Origin: Salmonella phage IKe
DNA: 6,883 nucleotides
Reading direction: 5' to 3' (one strand)
Sequence record: NC_002014.1
Shown piece after piece: positions 2,082 to 6,883 of the stretch; position 1 is the stretch's first letter; every line of letters begins with the position of its first letter. Below the pieces are notes generated by a model that made no database searches, was not told the origin of the DNA, and worked only from the letters and a program-made list of their open reading frames with translations. The position numbers and the translations under genes are program-made.

Positions 2082-3386
2082 GTGAAAAGAAAAATAATAG
2101 CAATTTCTTTATTTTTATACATCCCTTTGTCTAATGCTGATAATTGGGAGTCTATTACTAAAAGCTATTACACTGGCTTTGCCATTTCTAAAACTGTTGA
2201 ATCAAAAGATAAGGATGGTAAACCAGTTCGTAAAGAGGTTATAACTCAGGCTGATTTAACTACCGCCTGTAATGATGCTAAAGCCTCCGCACAAAATGTT
2301 TTTAATCAAATCAAGCTAACATTATCTGGTACATGGCCTAATTCTCAGTTTCGCCTTGTAACTGGTGATACCTGCGTTTATAACGGTTCGCCTGGTGAAA
2401 AAACTGAATCTTGGTCTATTCGCGCTCAGGTTGAGGGTGATATACAACGTTCTGTACCAGATGAAGAACCTTCTGAACAAACGCCAGAAGAAATTTGTGA
2501 AGCCAAACCTCCTATTGATGGCGTTTTTAATAACGTCTTTAAGGGTGACGAAGGAGGCTTTTATATTAATTATAATGGCTGTGAATATGAGGCAACTGGC
2601 GTTACTGTTTGCCAGAATGATGGAACTGTCTGTTCCTCCTCCGCTTGGAAGCCAACAGGTTACGTTCCCGAATCTGGAGAACCTTCCTCCTCTCCTCTGA
2701 AAGACGGTGACACTGGCGGTACTGGTGAAGGTGGTTCTGATACTGGCGGTGATACCGGTGGCGGTGATACTGGTGGTGGTTCTACTGGCGGCGATACTGG
2801 CGGTTCTTCTGGTGGCGGTTCGTCTGGTGGCGGTTCGTCTGGTGGATCAACTGGTAAATCACTGACAAAGGAAGATGTAACCGCAGCAATACATGTTGCT
2901 TCCCCTTCTATTGGTGATGCTGTTAAAGATTCTCTTACAGAAGATAATGACCAGTACGACAATCAGAAGAAAGCAGATGAACAATCAGCTAAAGCCTCTG
3001 CTTCTGTATCTGACGCTATCTCTGATGGTATGCGTGGCGTTGGTAATTTCGTTGACGATTTTGGCGGTGAGTCGTCGCAATACGGTACAGGCAATTCTGA
3101 AATGGATCTTTCCGTTAGCCTGGCTAAAGGGCAACTTGGAATTGATCGTGAGGGTCATGGTTCAGCTTGGGAATCTTTTTTAAATGATGGTGCTTTACGT
3201 CCCTCCATTCCTACTGGTCATGGTTGCACTAATTTTGTCATGTATCAGGGTTCTGTTTATCAGATTGAAATTGGCTGTGACAAATTAAATGATATTAAAT
3301 CAGTATTATCTTGGGTTATGTACTGTTTAACATTCTGGTATGTATTCCAGTCTGTTACTTCATTACTTCGTAAAGGTGAACAATAA
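2082..3386 (+). CDS. III: Adsorption/minor coat protein gpIII, 434 aa, GTG start
   Basis: GTG start with AAGG (2071-2074) 7 nt upstream; f1 gene III also starts with GTG. It has a signal peptide ([19 protein letters not shown]|DNW), Cys-containing N-terminal domains, one Gly/Ser/Thr/Asp-rich linker, and a C-terminal hydrophobic anchor ([27 protein letters not shown]). Confidence 0.95.
2706..2855 (+). repeat. Gly-rich linker-coding tandem repeats inside gene III
   Basis: The region encodes [50 protein letters not shown]. It includes three consecutive 15-nt units GGTTC(T/G)TCTGGTGG(C/A) at 2802-2816, 2817-2831 and 2832-2846, plus GGTGATAC(C/T)GGTGG-type units upstream. Confidence 0.9.
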
Positions 3387-4837: not shown

Positions 4838-6151
4838 ATGAAATTACAGGCTGAAAAGAAATTAATTTTTGGGTATGTTGCTCTCTGTTTCCTTATGACA
4901 TTAGGCATTGCATTTAATGTTCTGGCTGATCCGGTCAATTTAAATAACGCTCCGGTGCGTTCGTTTGTGCAATGGTATTCGCAAAAATCTAATAAAGCTG
5001 TTGTTGTAAATCCTGATGTTAAAGGAAATATTACTGTATTTAATGCAGATGTTAATCAGGCCAATATTGATGATTTCTTTAAGTCTGTTCTTAACGCTAA
5101 TGGCTTTGTTCTTATGGCTGGTGATCCTTCAGGTGTGTCTACTCCGTCAAAGCTGCCTTCTCAACAGACCGATAATGATGATGATTATGAAGATTCCGCG
5201 GATTATGTTCCGGTTGGTGATTCTGTTCCGGTATCTGCCCAACCGCAAAAGCCTTTAGATCTTACCGTTCGCAATTTTAAGTTAACCCGCGTGCGTTCTT
5301 CTGACGTTCTTCCGCTTGCCAAAATCTTTGTCGATTCCAACGGTGGCGGCGATGTTATTGATTACCCAGGCAATAACAGCCTGTTGGTTTCTGGTTCTGC
5401 TGCTATCATGAATGCCCTGGCTGATTTCATTACGTCAATCGACGTTGCCCGTGATCAGGTTCTTATTCAGTCGCTTATGTTTGAAACCAGCTTAGTTAAT
5501 GGCGTGGATCTTTCTTTTGCTGCCGGTTCTGCTTCTGGTGATAAGGTCGCAGGCGGTTTCAATACATCTGCTCTTGGCACTGCACTTTCAACTGCTGGCG
5601 GTTCCTTCGGCATCTTTAACGGTAATGTTTTAGCGTTATCCATTCAGGCGGTAAAAAATGACTCTAATTCAAAAGTTATTTCTACCCCGCGCATCCTGAC
5701 GCAATCAGGTCAGACAGGTTACATCTCTGTAGGTCAAAATGTGCCGTTTGTCACTGGTAAGGTAACGGGTGAGGCTGCAAATGTTAACAACCCTTTCCAG
5801 ACCATTGAGCGCCGCGATGTTGGTGTTTCTCTTAAGGTGACGCCTGTTGTCATGGGTAATGGTCAGCTTGTTCTTACCATTGATACCAAAGCTGACTCCC
5901 TAACCAGTCAAATGACTGCTAGCGACATCATTACTAATCAGCGTCATATGCAAACGACAGTGCAGATAAAAGACGGTCAGACGCTTTTGCTTGGTGGTCT
6001 TATCGATTCCAATACAACTGACGGTAATCGCTCTGTACCTTGGTTTGAAAGCGTACCTGTGATTGGCTGGTTGTTCCGCAGCCATAGTGATTCGCATAAC
6101 GAAAGAACTATGTTTGTTCTCCTTACCGCGCACGTTATTAAGGCGCTTTGA
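4838..6151 (+). CDS. IV: Outer-membrane secretin gpIV, 437 aa
   Basis: ATG at 4838 with GAAGG (4827-4831) 6 nt upstream, 2 nt after the gene I stop. The signal peptide runs up to …NVLA|DPV. The secretin core closely matches f1 pIV (GGSFGIFNG, STPRILT, SVGQNVPF(V/I)TG, ANVNNPFQTIER, DGQTLLLGGL). The TTG at 4832 used by the ORF track is less likely as the start. Confidence 0.95.
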   Translation: MKLQAEKKLIFGYVALCFLMTLGIAFNVLADPVNLNNAPVRSFVQWYSQKSNKAVVVNPDVKGNITVFNADVNQANIDDFFKSVLNANGFVLMAGDPSGVSTPSKLPSQQTDNDDDYEDSADYVPVGDSVPVSAQPQKPLDLTVRNFKLTRVRSSDVLPLAKIFVDSNGGGDVIDYPGNNSLLVSGSAAIMNALADFITSIDVARDQVLIQSLMFETSLVNGVDLSFAAGSASGDKVAGGFNTSALGTALSTAGGSFGIFNGNVLALSIQAVKNDSNSKVISTPRILTQSGQTGYISVGQNVPFVTGKVTGEAANVNNPFQTIERRDVGVSLKVTPVVMGNGQLVLTIDTKADSLTSQMTASDIITNQRHMQTTVQIKDGQTLLLGGLIDSNTTDGNRSVPWFESVPVIGWLFRSHSDSHNERTMFVLLTAHVIKAL

Positions 6152-6197
6152 GGCTGCCGGGTAGGTGCGCTAGCCCTGCCCGTAGACTCTTGCGCCT
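6141..6197 (+). other. Long imperfect GC-rich hairpin across the gene IV stop; candidate packaging (morphogenetic) signal and/or gene IV terminator
   Basis: Hand-folded pairs are 6141-6146/6192-6197 (AGGCGC/GCGCCT), 6150-6152/6187-6189, 6154-6155/6184-6185, and an 8-bp inner stem 6158-6165/6175-6182 (CGGGTAGG/CCTGCCCG, one G.T). In Ff the packaging hairpin is the first IG element after gene IV, so the assignment here is positional only. The true signal may extend further toward about 6275. Confidence 0.35.
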
Positions 6198-6275
6198 CTC
6201 CGTGTGCGCGGCTTCGATACAACGTATGTTCCTCGGTTTTCACATCCATAATGGCTGCGGTGCTAACGGCTAGTT

Positions 6276-6376
6276 AGTACGTGATAATTTTCACGTACTC
6301 CGCCCTTCTCTTTCGGCGTTCTCCGGCGTCGAATCGTCAAACGCTAAATCGTGGGGGCCCCTTTGGGCCGATTTAG
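6276..6376 (+). other. Complementary (-) strand origin region (RNA-polymerase primer hairpins)
   Basis: A perfect 9-bp hairpin AGTACGTGA(6276-6284)/TCACGTACT(6291-6299) is followed by a pyrimidine-rich tract. A second hairpin CTAAATCG(6344-6351)/CGATTTAG(6369-6376) encloses GGGGGCCCCTTTGGGC. The stretch GTCAAACGCTAAATCGTGGGGGCCCCTTTGGGCCGATTTAGTGATTTACGACAC closely parallels f1 GTCAAGCTCTAAATCGGGGGCTCCCTTTAGGGTTCCGATTTAGTGCTTTACGGCAC, which is part of the f1 (-) origin. Confidence 0.65.
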
Positions 6377-6409
6377 TGATTTACGACACTCCATAAATAT
6401 CCTTGTTAT

Positions 6410-6455
6410 GGGTGATGGTTCACGTAGTGGGCCATCGCCTTGTTAGACGTTTTTT
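6410..6455 (+). other. Highly conserved IG block shared with Ff (stem GGTGATGG/CCATCGCC)
   Basis: GGGTGATGGTTCACGTAGTGGGCCATCGCC (6410-6439) is identical over 30 nt to the f1 ori sequence as I recall it. It is followed by TTGTTAGACGTTTTT versus f1 CTGATAGACGGTTTTT. It can form an 8-bp stem 6411-6418/6432-6439 with one G.T pair. Confidence 0.6.
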
Positions 6456-6553
6456 TCTTTTGGTGATCGATAAGCGATTTTGTAGTTTGACGGTCGTAGA
6501 CGAAAGGACGTGGAAGCGGCGATTTTGGATCTGGCAGTCGGCTCGGTCGTGGT

Positions 6554-6597
6554 GAGTCCACTATGTTTAATAGTGGACTCTTGTTGCATTTTGCAAC
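6554..6597 (+). other. Viral (+) strand origin core: gpII nick-site hairpin plus adjacent hairpin
   Basis: GAGTCCACTAT(6554-6564)-gttta-ATAGTGGACTC(6570-6580) is followed by GTTGCA(6583-6588)-ttt-TGCAAC(6592-6597). f1 has GAGTCCACGTTCTTT^AATAGTGGACTCTTGTTCCAAACTGGAAC. By homology the nick is predicted between T6568 and A6569. Confidence 0.85.
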
Positions 6598-6600
6598 GTG

Positions 6601-6798
6601 CTACAGCCCTCTCTCCTTCAAAACTCCTTCGATTGCTTCTTCAAGTTTATGTTTTATAAGATAATTTATCAGTTCTGATTTTTTTATAGGCAAACCAGCT
6701 CTTTTTGTTGCTTCGACAGTTGCCGTTACCAGTAAATTTTGCATGTGCCTATTGATAGTTACTGTAGTTCTACTGCCTCTTTTACCTAGTGTATTCAT
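6601..6798 (-). CDS. Hypothetical 65-aa protein, possible ribbon-helix-helix (CopG/Arc/MetJ-like) DNA-binding regulator, divergent from gene II
   Basis: This is the only ORF of 65 aa or more that does not overlap a canonical gene. On the minus strand, ATG (6798-6796) is preceded by AGGA (6810-6807) with an 8-nt spacer. The sequence fits strand-helix-turn-helix: SRTTVTINRH (alternating beta pattern), MQNLLVTATVEATKRAG, then LPIKKSELINYLIKHKLEEAI, where the SELI-type helix start is typical of RHH helix B. Against a real gene: it is short, rich in rare codons (AGA x4, AGG, ATA x3, CTA), and has no convincing sigma70 promoter by eye. No search was possible. Confidence 0.4.
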   Translation of the reverse strand: MNTLGKRGSRTTVTINRHMQNLLVTATVEATKRAGLPIKKSELINYLIKHKLEEAIEGVLKERGL

Positions 6799-6828
6799 AA
6801 AATAAATCCTAAAGATCTTTACAAATAG

Positions 6829-6856
6829 TTGCGTTTAAATTTACATGTGTTAAATT
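6829..6856 (+). promoter_or_regulatory. Candidate gene II promoter (-35 TTGCGT, 16-nt spacer, extended -10 TGtTAAATT)
   Basis: TTGCGT lies at 6829-6834, TG at 6848-6849 and TAAATT at 6851-6856. This predicts a start near 6863 and a leader of roughly 27 nt that wraps to the gene II ATG at 7. The motif match is by eye only. Ff phages have a strong promoter directly upstream of gene II. Confidence 0.3.
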
Positions 6857-6883
6857 ACGCACATGGTGAGTGTTTGAGTGCTT

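What the first reader, a model, noticed from the sequence alone, without database searches (positions are those of the whole stretch)
6598..6830. Ff-type replication enhancer (ori domain B) is not recognisable; its position is occupied by the antisense ORF
The (-) origin, the 30-nt block and the nick hairpins are strongly conserved with f1. Similarity stops abruptly after the second hairpin (6597). In f1 the next ~100 nt are the A+T-rich enhancer (domain B, with IHF sites) that ends in the gene II promoter. Here the equivalent roughly 200 nt show no resemblance to f1 that I can see and instead form an open reading frame on the opposite strand. I found no clear IHF consensus (WATCAANNNNTTR) by eye. 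Either the enhancer has been replaced by a module with a different function, or it is a diverged enhancer that happens to be open in one frame.
Basis: partly seen in the sequence, partly recalled or inferred. Interest (0 to 1): 0.4.

Follow-up and report, generated by a model that had tools for sequence, protein, structure and literature searches.

The report
Overlooked antisense regulator gene overlapping IKe origin
The stretch next to the replication origin of this IKe-type filamentous phage is not empty enhancer DNA: it holds a conserved, unannotated 65-residue gene for a small DNA-binding protein on the opposite strand, and half of that gene also appears to serve as origin DNA.

Summary

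No IHF consensus (≤1 mismatch) is present.

The gene's origin-proximal half (6601-6693, +33 to +125 from the nick, 30% G+C) is conserved at synonymous sites. pS falls to 0.14, against 0.7-0.9 in the 5' half. An 18-nt block (6643-6660) is identical in L021, where the protein is only ~46% identical. This is where Ff has domain B, so gene and enhancer-like cis element probably overlap.

The gene starts 91 nt from gene II, back to back with a conserved extended -10 gene II promoter flanked by an inverted repeat. The most likely role is a CopG-like repressor of gene II, inferred but not shown. An origin-accessory role is the main rival.

The parts
6552..6597 (+). Core (+) origin: nick hairpin and second hairpin. 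The inferred gpII nick lies between T6568 and A6569, so +1 = 6569.
   Evidence: Near-identical to f1 5769-5810. Cross-lineage identity is 0.84-1.0. The nick position is inferred from homology to the f1 TTCTTT^AATAGTGG site (f1 AATAG starts at 5781).
6598..6619 (+). Right end of the Ff-like core origin. It overlaps the ORF stop codon (6601-6603) and its last codons.
   Evidence: Ungapped 12/16 match of 6604-6619 to f1 5816-5831.
6601..6798 (-). Gene for a 65-aa ribbon-helix-helix-like protein (MNTLGKRGSRTTVTINRHMQNLLVTATVEATKRAGLPIKKSELINYLIKHKLEEAIEGVLKERGL). It is not annotated in the related GenBank records examined (PEar4, I2-2).
6613..6644 (+). Three direct repeats CTCCTTCAA / CTCCTTCGA / CTTCTTCAA spaced 11-12 nt apart, between the core origin and the 18-nt block.
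   Evidence: Partly conserved across lineages. They could equally reflect the amphipathic-helix periodicity of the encoded peptide.
6634..6669 (.). Minimum of synonymous variation (codons 44-55). pS = 0.14, roughly equal to pN.
   Evidence: Sliding-window analysis. N-half pS 0.71 against C-half 0.41, with 0 of 1000 permutations reaching that difference.
6643..6660 (.). 18-nt block AAGTTTATGTTTTATAAG (antisense codons L47-I-K-H-K-L52), starting at +75 from the nick. Candidate protein-binding core of the enhancer-equivalent.
   Evidence: Identical in L021/L022, where the protein is only ~46% identical, and 17/18 in L019. Leu is CTT in 14 of 16 block Leu codons, against 1 of 40 elsewhere. Not conserved in I2-2 (10/18 by eye on the sequence), which has a different gene II type.
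6680..6690 (.). Second copy of the motif (TTTTTTATAGG here; TGTTTTATAGG in most relatives), 30 nt from the first. It encodes P37-I-K-(K/Q)40.
   Evidence: Cross-lineage identity is 0.95 for 6682-6691. Absent from the remote lineages L019 and L021.
6807..6811 (-). Shine-Dalgarno TAGGA, 8 nt upstream of the ORF's ATG (6798-6796).
   Evidence: Invariant in 8 lineages although the flanking sequence diverges.
6829..6856 (+). Inferred gene II promoter: -35 TTGCGT (6829-6834), 16-nt spacer, extended -10 TGtTAAATT (6848-6856). The inferred start is near 6861-6863.
   Evidence: The same positional candidate occurs in all 8 lineages (TTGnnn-16-TGnTAnnnT, with the -10 ending 33-35 nt before the gene II ATG). 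TTG, TG and TA...T are invariant. Not mapped experimentally.
6844..6865 (.). Inverted repeat CATGTG-N10-CACATG bracketing the gene II -10 hexamer. Candidate operator.
   Evidence: At least 6 bp per arm in 5 of 8 IKe-type lineages and degenerate in 3. I2-2-type phages have a different palindromic or tandem element (ATACGTGTATACACGTAT) at the equivalent place.
6825..6853 (-). Weak candidate promoter for the antisense gene: -35 TTAACA (6853-6848), 17-nt spacer, -10 AACTAT (6830-6825). Its -35 overlaps the gene II extended -10.
   Evidence: Consensus scan, 8/12. A positionally equivalent candidate exists in most lineages. The stricter tool scan found no promoter. Low confidence.
6868..6883 (+). 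Gene II leader with two tandem 8-nt repeats, GAGTGTTT GAGTGCTT.
   Evidence: Every lineage has 2-5 tandem 8-nt repeats here, but the sequences differ (L021 TTCATTTA x3-4; I2-2 TATACnnn x3).

Best explanation
The interval holds three overlapping features.

(1) The right end of an Ff-like core (+) origin, running to about 6619.

(2) A real minus-strand gene (6798→6601) for a 65-residue ribbon-helix-helix (RHH) DNA-binding protein. It has its own conserved ribosome-binding site and is transcribed divergently from gene II.

(3) An A+T-rich cis-acting DNA element inside the 3' half of that gene (about 6620-6693, +52 to +125 from the nick). This is the IKe-type counterpart of Ff origin domain B. Its core is the invariant 18-nt block at 6643-6660.

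The RHH protein most likely binds as a dimer or tetramer at the 91-nt region it shares with gene II. There the gene II extended -10 promoter, a flanking inverted repeat and the candidate promoter of the RHH gene overlap. Binding would repress transcription of the replication initiator gene II and of its own gene. That would set replicative-form copy number and phage burden, and could exclude superinfecting relatives, much as CopG does for RepB in rolling-circle plasmids.

Shown here: the gene is real and conserved, its fold is RHH-like, and the DNA carries constraint beyond what coding requires. Inferred: the promoter positions, the operator, repression, and the enhancer function of the constrained DNA.
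For: Gene reality. There are 14 homologues of 62-66 aa at 63-97% identity on contigs of about 6.4-7 kb. They always lie between gene IV and gene II, antisense and divergent from gene II, in at least 5 lineages whose gene II proteins are 72-98% identical to IKe's. Pairwise dN/dS is 0.06-0.40 with a third-position excess. TAGGA-N8-ATG is invariant. Remote relatives at 33-46% identity, from the representative-library profile search, occupy the same position next to Phage_CRI genes. A 25%-identical subfamily occurs in I2-2-like phages (hhalign probability 84%, E 7.5e-6; 26 intact proteins of about 65 aa).

Overlapping cis element. pS is 0.71 in codons 10-37 and 0.41 in codons 38-65, with 0 of 1000 permutations reaching that difference, and the minimum is 0.14 at 6634-6669. 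The 18-nt block is identical in lineages whose gene II is only 49-52% identical. CTT is used for Leu in 14 of 16 block Leu codons, against 1 of 40 elsewhere. G+C is 30%. Cross-lineage identity is 0.70-0.95 over 6592-6691, against less than 0.55 upstream of the nick hairpin apart from one 10-nt bin, 6332-6341 at 0.71. The position, +33 to +125, matches f1 domain B at +40 to about +130 (PMC5405960). The block is not kept in I2-2, which has a different gene II type, even though the protein motif is partly kept.

Regulatory architecture. A conserved gene II promoter lies back to back with the RHH gene, and an inverted repeat brackets its -10.
Against: No expression data were available: no transcript, no protein, and no mapped promoter for the antisense gene. 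Its best promoter candidate scores only 8/12, and the stricter scan found none.

The inverted repeat is degenerate in 3 of 8 IKe-type lineages. The remote lineages L019 and L021 keep the RTT(I/V)(S/T)IN strand but have quite different gene II upstream sequences. That fits a promoter operator less well than it fits a target inside the conserved block.

The similarity of the constrained DNA to f1 domain B is not significant on its own, and there is no good IHF consensus.

Synonymous constraint could have other causes, such as an RNA-level signal.
Confidence: 0.6

Rival explanations
1. The RHH protein is an origin accessory, or enhancer-binding, factor rather than a promoter repressor, or in addition to being one. 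It would bind the invariant 18-nt block, and its second copy 30 nt away, inside its own gene. It would bend the DNA next to the nick site and help gpII start (+)-strand synthesis. This would replace or supplement the IHF-dependent enhancer of Ff, as RHH accessory proteins such as TraY do for relaxases at oriT.
For: The presumed DNA-reading strand, R-T-T-(V/I)-(T/S)-I-N, is kept from IKe to the remote relatives P0016 and P0020. The only intergenic DNA that is likewise kept across those lineages is the nick region and the 18-nt block. The gene II upstream regions are not kept. In P0021/L023 both the strand (RDTSVGIN) and the block have changed. The block starts at +75/+76, at +86, and (diverged copy) at +66 from the nick in different lineages. 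These steps of about 10 nt are compatible with helical phasing. No IHF consensus is present.
Against: The phasing argument rests on three distinct values. The co-variation argument rests on a single contrasting lineage, which is more diverged everywhere. I2-2-type phages keep the protein family without the block, so the block is not needed for the protein's generic function. The second copy of the motif is absent in L019 and L021. Divergent placement against a rep promoter is the classic layout of a transcriptional regulator. No binding data exist.
Confidence: 0.2
2. The segment is purely a cis-acting, diverged Ff-type enhancer, and the open frame is fortuitous.
For: Its position and A+T richness match domain B. 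There is DNA-level conservation at 6601-6693.
Against: The 5' half of the ORF (6694-6798) shows saturated synonymous change with conserved amino acids (pS 0.7-0.9, pN 0.1-0.3). The frame, length (60-66 aa), start codon and Shine-Dalgarno sequence are conserved down to 25-46% protein identity, including in phages with a different gene II type. The protein gives a confident fold.
Confidence: 0.02
3. The gene is real, but the reduced synonymous variation in its 3' half does not reflect a replication enhancer. It could reflect an mRNA-level signal (stability, translation or an antisense interaction), a secondary gpII recognition or termination-like sequence, or repeated recombination that homogenises origin-proximal DNA.
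For: The block TATGTTTTATA differs at one position from the nick-site sequence TATGTTTAATA. The 5' half of the gene is a recombination mosaic: IKe against L005 is about 90% identical genome-wide but only 33% in 6721-6780. This shows exchange breakpoints inside the gene. The f1 similarity is not significant.
Against: The block is identical in lineages with only 49-52% gene II identity, where neighbouring codons have diverged. This argues against recent exchange. The nick-side sequence changes in L019 and L021 (ATCTTT, ATCTCT) without a matching change in the block. Rfam found no RNA family.
Confidence: 0.15

Closest known systems
CopG (RepA) of rolling-circle plasmid pMV158, a 45-aa RHH repressor of the copG-repB promoter
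   Same: It is a small stand-alone RHH protein encoded next to the initiator gene of a rolling-circle replicon. Its N-terminal strand is K-R-x-T-x-T, and hhalign aligns KRTTVTIN with KRLTITLS. Copy-number control through the rep promoter is the role inferred here.
   Different: copG is co-transcribed with repB, whereas this gene is divergent from gene II. There is no significant sequence similarity (hhalign probability 2.6%). The protein here is 20 residues longer. The gene overlaps the origin. Repression has not been shown.
Ff (f1/M13/fd) origin domain B, the IHF-dependent replication enhancer (5820 to about 5910; PMC5405960)
   Same: It lies immediately 3' of a near-identical core origin, has similar length and A+T content, and is conserved DNA. 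A colinear 16/21 match falls inside f1's primary IHF footprint.
   Different: Here the DNA also encodes protein on the other strand. There is no IHF consensus at up to 1 mismatch; my by-eye reading finds only a 7/9 candidate, AAACATAAACTTG. The f1 similarity is not statistically significant. About 22 extra nt separate the core from the block.
Divergently transcribed repressors next to the rep gene of temperate inoviruses (for example RstR of CTXphi, Pf4r of Pf4; PMC8402870)
   Same: A small regulator gene sits beside the replication initiator gene, and a variable 5' segment differs between close relatives. The variable segment recalls CTXphi immunity regions; the CTXphi comparison and the divergent orientation of these repressors are from memory.
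   Different: Those repressors are not known to me to be RHH proteins; that they are helix-turn-helix type is from memory and was not checked. They belong to integrating phages. IKe and I2-2 are described as non-integrating, and this region is described as intergenic (PMC7307601).
RHH accessory proteins of conjugative relaxosomes (TraY, ArtA, TrwA-type)
   Different: Binding near the nick has not been shown here. The gene's layout against a promoter suggests transcription control.
ORF13 of Pseudomonas filamentous phage PMBT54, an omega-like RHH protein (PMC10534721)
   Same: An RHH protein in a non-integrating inovirus, which its authors suggest has a copy-number or maintenance role.
   Different: No detectable sequence relationship was found in my searches. 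Its genomic position relative to the origin was not compared.

Membership tests
Ribbon-helix-helix (MetJ/Arc/CopG) superfamily | Beta-alpha-alpha topology of about 45 residues | tested here: met
Ribbon-helix-helix (MetJ/Arc/CopG) superfamily | N-terminal strand with alternating polar (DNA-reading) and hydrophobic residues | tested here: met
   R10-T-T12-V-T14-I-N16 is nearly invariant across the family. It aligns to CopG K-R-L-T-I-T-L-S.
Ribbon-helix-helix (MetJ/Arc/CopG) superfamily | Match to a curated RHH sequence family at threshold | tested here: not met
   The IKe protein has no Pfam hit. RHH_3 is below threshold in 5 of 11 relatives (best E 0.013) and RHH_5 in one. NCBIfam gave nothing. 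PDB sequence searches gave nothing.
Ribbon-helix-helix (MetJ/Arc/CopG) superfamily | Homodimer with an intermolecular two-stranded sheet that binds the DNA major groove | not testable with these tools
   Only monomer prediction was available.
Ff-type (+) origin domain B (replication enhancer) | Located directly 3' of the core origin (about +40 to +130) and A+T-rich | tested here: met
   The constrained DNA spans +33 to +125 and is 30% G+C, against 33% for f1 domain B. f1 coordinates are from PMC5405960.
Ff-type (+) origin domain B (replication enhancer) | IHF binding site(s) | tested here: not met
   There is no WATCAANNNNTTR match with up to 1 mismatch in 6598-6830. A 2-mismatch candidate, AAACATAAACTTG (minus strand, 6642-6654), is colinear with f1's core, and its variable positions across lineages fall at the N positions (my reading). 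Actual binding is not testable here.
Ff-type (+) origin domain B (replication enhancer) | Sequence homology to f1/M13 domain B | tested here: inconclusive
   16/21 at 6647-6667 against f1 5837-5857, but 325 of 1000 shuffles score as well.
Ff-type (+) origin domain B (replication enhancer) | Required in cis for efficient gpII-dependent initiation | not testable with these tools
   Needs ori-plasmid assays. The 1987 IKe origin-mapping paper (Peeters et al., DNA 6:139) was not available in the library.
CopG-type copy-control repressors of rolling-circle replicons | Encoded in the same operon as rep and upstream of it | tested here: not met
   The gene is divergent from gene II. The start codons are 91 nt apart on opposite strands.
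CopG-type copy-control repressors of rolling-circle replicons | Operator overlapping the rep promoter | tested here: inconclusive
   CATGTG-N10-CACATG brackets the inferred gene II -10 in 5 of 8 lineages. Binding is untested.
Type II antitoxins with an RHH domain (TacA, RelB, ParD) | Adjacent co-transcribed toxin gene | tested here: not met

The most novel reading that the evidence does not exclude
The 65-aa RHH protein is a phage-encoded origin-enhancer-binding protein. It would recognise the invariant 18-bp block, helically phased with the nick site, inside its own coding sequence, and take over the DNA-bending role that host IHF plays at the Ff enhancer. It might also repress gene II. One 200-bp stretch would then encode both a trans-acting factor and its own cis-acting replication site. 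That would be a relaxosome-like accessory system for a filamentous-phage initiator.
Probability: 0.2. Interest if true: 0.7.

Novelty: new member of a known kind. Interest (0 to 1): 0.5.

Why it matters
IKe and I2-2 have been reference filamentous phages since 1985 and 1992. In the records and papers I could read, the region between gene IV and gene II is treated as non-coding. PMC7307601 calls it intergenic in I2-2, IKe and M13. The PEar4 and I2-2 GenBank records annotate nothing there.

A conserved extra gene for a DNA-binding protein, placed against the promoter of the replication initiator, implies a layer of transcriptional or origin-level control that the Ff paradigm lacks. In Ff, gene II is controlled by gene V protein and the enhancer by IHF.

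This affects how IKe-type origins are used in vectors, because an 'origin fragment' may carry part of a regulator gene. It also bears on how copy number and superinfection are controlled in non-integrating inoviruses.

The dual use of about 90 bp as both coding sequence and origin element is a clear, testable case of overlapping genetic codes.

Tried and rejected
- Pfam, NCBIfam and PDB sequence searches with the single protein and with profiles found no family at threshold.
- An Rfam scan of 6100-6883 found nothing.
- The strict promoter and terminator scan found no promoter in 6100-6883. My looser scan gives a convincing conserved gene II promoter but only weak candidates for the antisense gene.
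- The IHF consensus search was negative.
- A local alignment of 6614-6830 against f1 domain B was not significant.
- I looked for a remnant of the RHH gene antisense to f1 domain B with tblastn and three-frame translation. Nothing credible appeared. The best hit, 'ESTIKERGL', lies in the nick hairpin and is a coincidence.
- I looked for short words shared by the intergenic regions of both IKe-type and I2-2-type phages, as a possible common operator. Five A/T-rich 6-mers are shared, but in I2-2 they are not contiguous, and TGTTTTATA is absent from its intergenic region.
- Plus-strand ORFs overlapping the block (6563-6664 and others) were dismissed, because single-base indels in relatives break them.
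- The literature search found no accessible report of the antisense ORF or of the mapped IKe enhancer. My recollection that Peeters et al. 1987 mapped a core origin plus an enhancer in IKe could not be checked and is not used.

Full report
**What the window is.** The 6883-nt window has the gene order of an IKe-type inovirus. Gene II is at 7-1272, and genes V, VII, IX, VIII, III, VI and I follow. Gene IV ends at 6151, and the large intergenic region runs from 6152 to 6883 and wraps to position 6. The nearest records in the phage collection are the Erwinia phages PEar1, 2, 4 and 6, with f1/M13/fd more distant.

**Checking the observation.**
- The minus-strand ORF at 6601-6798 (65 aa) exists.
- Alignment with f1 confirms strong identity over the (-) origin and the nick hairpins.
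- Similarity does not end at 6597. With no gap after the nick, 6604-6619 matches f1 5816-5831 at 12 of 16 positions. This spans the f1 domain A/B border (coordinates from PMC5405960). The core origin therefore overlaps the ORF's stop codon.
- Beyond that point, the best match to f1 domain B is 16/21 (6647-6667 against f1 5837-5857). It lies inside f1's primary IHF footprint, but 325 of 1000 shuffles score as well.
- No IHF consensus with up to 1 mismatch occurs in the interval.

**The ORF is a gene.**
- A search of 5.8 billion proteins found 14 homologues of 62-66 aa (one is truncated) at 63-97% identity.
- Their contigs are inovirus genomes of 6.4-7 kb. In every case the ORF lies between gene IV and gene II, on the opposite strand and diverging from gene II. 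The lineages differ in genes III, VI and IV, and their gene II proteins are 72-98% identical to IKe's.
- Pairwise dN/dS is 0.06-0.40 with a clear third-position excess.
- TAGGA-N8-ATG is invariant in eight lineages, although the surrounding bases differ.
- A profile search of 1.8 billion representative proteins added three remote relatives of 60-61 aa at 33-46% identity. Two of them are again divergent from a Phage_CRI gene II, and the third sits on a short contig without an identifiable gene II. In all three loci the stop codon lies 27-37 nt from a recognisable nick hairpin.
- 'A frame that happens to be open' is excluded.

**What the protein looks like.**
- AlphaFold2 gives pLDDT 85, with an extended segment followed by helices at 17-34 and 40-62.
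- Foldseek is not significant, and no curated sequence family is reached. RHH_3 appears below threshold in 5 of 11 relatives.
- The nearly invariant R-T-T-V-T-I-N strand aligns with CopG's R-L-T-I-T-L-S.
- I accept an RHH fold with roughly 0.8 confidence. It is not a member of any named sequence family. PHROGs has it as phrog_2503, function unknown.

**The unexpected part: the gene's 3' half is also constrained as DNA.**
- Third codon positions vary freely in codons 10-37 but are almost frozen in codons 38-65.
- Across seven lineages, pS is 0.71 in the first half and 0.41 in the second, with 0 of 1000 permutations reaching that difference. A sliding window reaches pS 0.14, about equal to pN, at 6634-6669.
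- The 18-nt block AAGTTTATGTTTTATAAG (6643-6660, antisense LIKHKL) is identical in L021/L022 and 17/18 in L019. There the gene II proteins are only 49-52% identical to IKe's and the neighbouring codons differ.
- Leu is CTT in 14 of 16 block Leu codons, against 1 of 40 elsewhere in these genes.
- A second copy of the motif, T(G/T)TTTTATAGG at 6680-6690 (antisense PIKQ), lies 30 nt away in the IKe-like lineages.
- In the cross-lineage profile, identity stays below 0.55 upstream of the nick hairpin apart from one 10-nt bin (6332-6341, 0.71). It is 0.84-1.0 over the hairpin and 0.70-0.95 from 6592 to 6691, and it drops to the wobble-limited 0.6-0.75 in the 5' half of the gene.
- This interval is +33 to +125 from the nick and 30% G+C. 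That matches the place, size and composition of Ff domain B (+40 to about +130).
- The block starts at +75/+76 in the IKe-like lineages and L019, at +86 in L021, and (in diverged form) at +66 in L023. These steps of about 10 nt suggest helical phasing but rest on few values.
- In the colinear position of f1's IHF core, the minus strand reads AAACATAAACTTG. That is 7 of the 9 specified consensus positions, and the bases that vary between lineages fall at the N positions. This is my reading, and it is only a lead.
- The simplest reading is that the IKe-type enhancer equivalent is present but overlaps the gene.

- The I2-2 reference record annotates nothing between gene IV and its gene II, which is of a different type and 346 aa long.
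- Antisense to that region are two overlapping ORFs that together make a 65-aa homologue split by one extra A.
- The reconstructed protein matches the family profile (hhalign 84%, E 7.5e-6). It has 26 intact relatives of about 65 aa in I2-2-like contigs, again divergent from gene II.
- I2-2 keeps part of the protein motif (NYVIENY) but not the 18-nt block (10/18, counted by eye on the sequence). TGTTTTATA is absent from its intergenic region.
- The block's DNA-level conservation therefore tracks the IKe-type gene II and origin, not the needs of the RHH protein. This supports a cis-acting origin role.

**The shared upstream region.**
- The two start codons are 91 nt apart.
- In all eight IKe-type lineages the same candidate gene II promoter is found: -35 TTGnnn, a 16-nt spacer, and TGnTAnnnT. 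In the window this is 6829-6834 and 6848-6856. The TTG, TG and TA...T bases are invariant.
- An inverted repeat, CATGTG-N10-CACATG (6844-6849 and 6860-6865), brackets the -10. It is kept in 5 of 8 lineages.
- The best candidate promoter for the RHH gene is TTAACA-17-AACTAT (6853→6825). It is weak, and its -35 overlaps the gene II -10. The strict scan found none.
- I2-2-type phages have a different palindromic or tandem element at the equivalent spot.

**Mechanism.**
- The layout is a small RHH gene placed back to back with the promoter of a rolling-circle initiator, with an inverted repeat over the -10 region.
- On that basis I favour a transcriptional repressor and autoregulator of gene II, analogous in function to CopG/RepB of pMV158. 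I give that function roughly 0.45 on its own.
- The main rival, at about 0.2, is that the protein binds the conserved block next to the nick and acts as an origin accessory factor.
- That rival is supported by co-conservation of the reading strand and the block in lineages whose gene II upstream regions are unrelated. I2-2, which has the protein without the block, argues against it.
- The two roles are not mutually exclusive. From memory, F-plasmid TraY does both.
- None of this is shown experimentally.

**Novelty.**
- RHH regulators beside rep genes, and origins that overlap coding sequence, are both known kinds of things.
- What is new is that the classical non-integrating phages IKe and I2-2 carry such a gene in a region treated as non-coding (PMC7307601; PMC7697814; GenBank records). 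Half of that gene also appears to serve as origin DNA.
- I rate it a new member of a known kind, with moderate interest.

Noticed in passing
L024 (I2-2, NC_001332) 2720-2918, minus strand: The I2-2 reference genome carries a homologue of the RHH gene split into two overlapping ORFs by one extra A (CTTAAACTATG, against CTTAACTATG expected from 26 intact relatives of about 65 aa). This is either a 1992 sequencing error or a genuine frameshift. The gene is not annotated in the record.
   Followed up: yes
L002 (PEar6) and L003 (PEar2), aligned to window 6483-6720: The deposited 'complete' genomes of PEar2 and PEar6 lack the whole nick hairpin and core origin and part of the RHH gene (PEar1 has similar partial coverage but was not aligned). 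A phage without a (+) origin should not replicate, so these look like assembly collapses or defective variants.
   Followed up: partly
L001 (PEar4), aligned to window 6484-6603: In PEar4 the 35 nt that follow the nick (AATAGTGGACTCTTGTTGCATTTTGCAACGTGCTA) sit about 100 nt upstream of their IKe position. The junction falls exactly at the nick site (…CTATGTTT|CAACCC…). The RHH ORF therefore loses its stop codon and runs to at least 70 aa. This could be an aberrant initiation or termination product, or an assembly artefact.
   Followed up: no
window 6661-6840, especially 6721-6780: Between close relatives (IKe against L005/PEar4-type: about 90% genome identity, gene II 98% aa identity), the 5' half of the RHH gene is a divergence hot spot. 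Chunk identity is 33% and synonymous sites are saturated. This indicates a recombination mosaic like the immunity regions of temperate inoviruses. The R-T-T reading strand is nevertheless kept.
   Followed up: partly
window 6868-6883, and the equivalent gene II leaders in L009, L019, L021, L024 and L025: Every lineage has 2-5 tandem 8-nt repeats just upstream of the gene II start, but the unit differs: GAGTGYTT in IKe-like phages, TTCAYTTA in L019/L021, and TATACnnn in I2-2-like phages. They may be the gene V protein translational operator, stacked ribosome-binding sequences, or a MetJ-style tandem operator.
   Followed up: no
window 6563-6573 compared with 6648-6658: The conserved block contains TATGTTTTATA, one base different from the nick-site sequence TATGTTT^AATA. 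The resemblance does not co-vary in L019 and L021, where the nick-side sequence changes but the block does not.
   Followed up: partly
L009-L011: gene IV stop to RHH stop, 165 nt: In one lineage only 165 nt separate gene IV from the RHH gene, against 449 nt in the window. The packaging signal, the (-) origin and the core (+) origin must therefore be far more compact there, or partly absent. Contig L009 (12.7 kb) is a head-to-tail dimer of the genome.
   Followed up: no
window 6613-6644: Three CTCCTTCAA-like repeats are spaced 11-12 nt apart. This matches both the DNA helical repeat and one turn of the encoded amphipathic alpha-helix (3.6 aa = 10.8 nt). Such a match would make it easy for a coding sequence and a phased DNA signal to coexist.
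   Followed up: no
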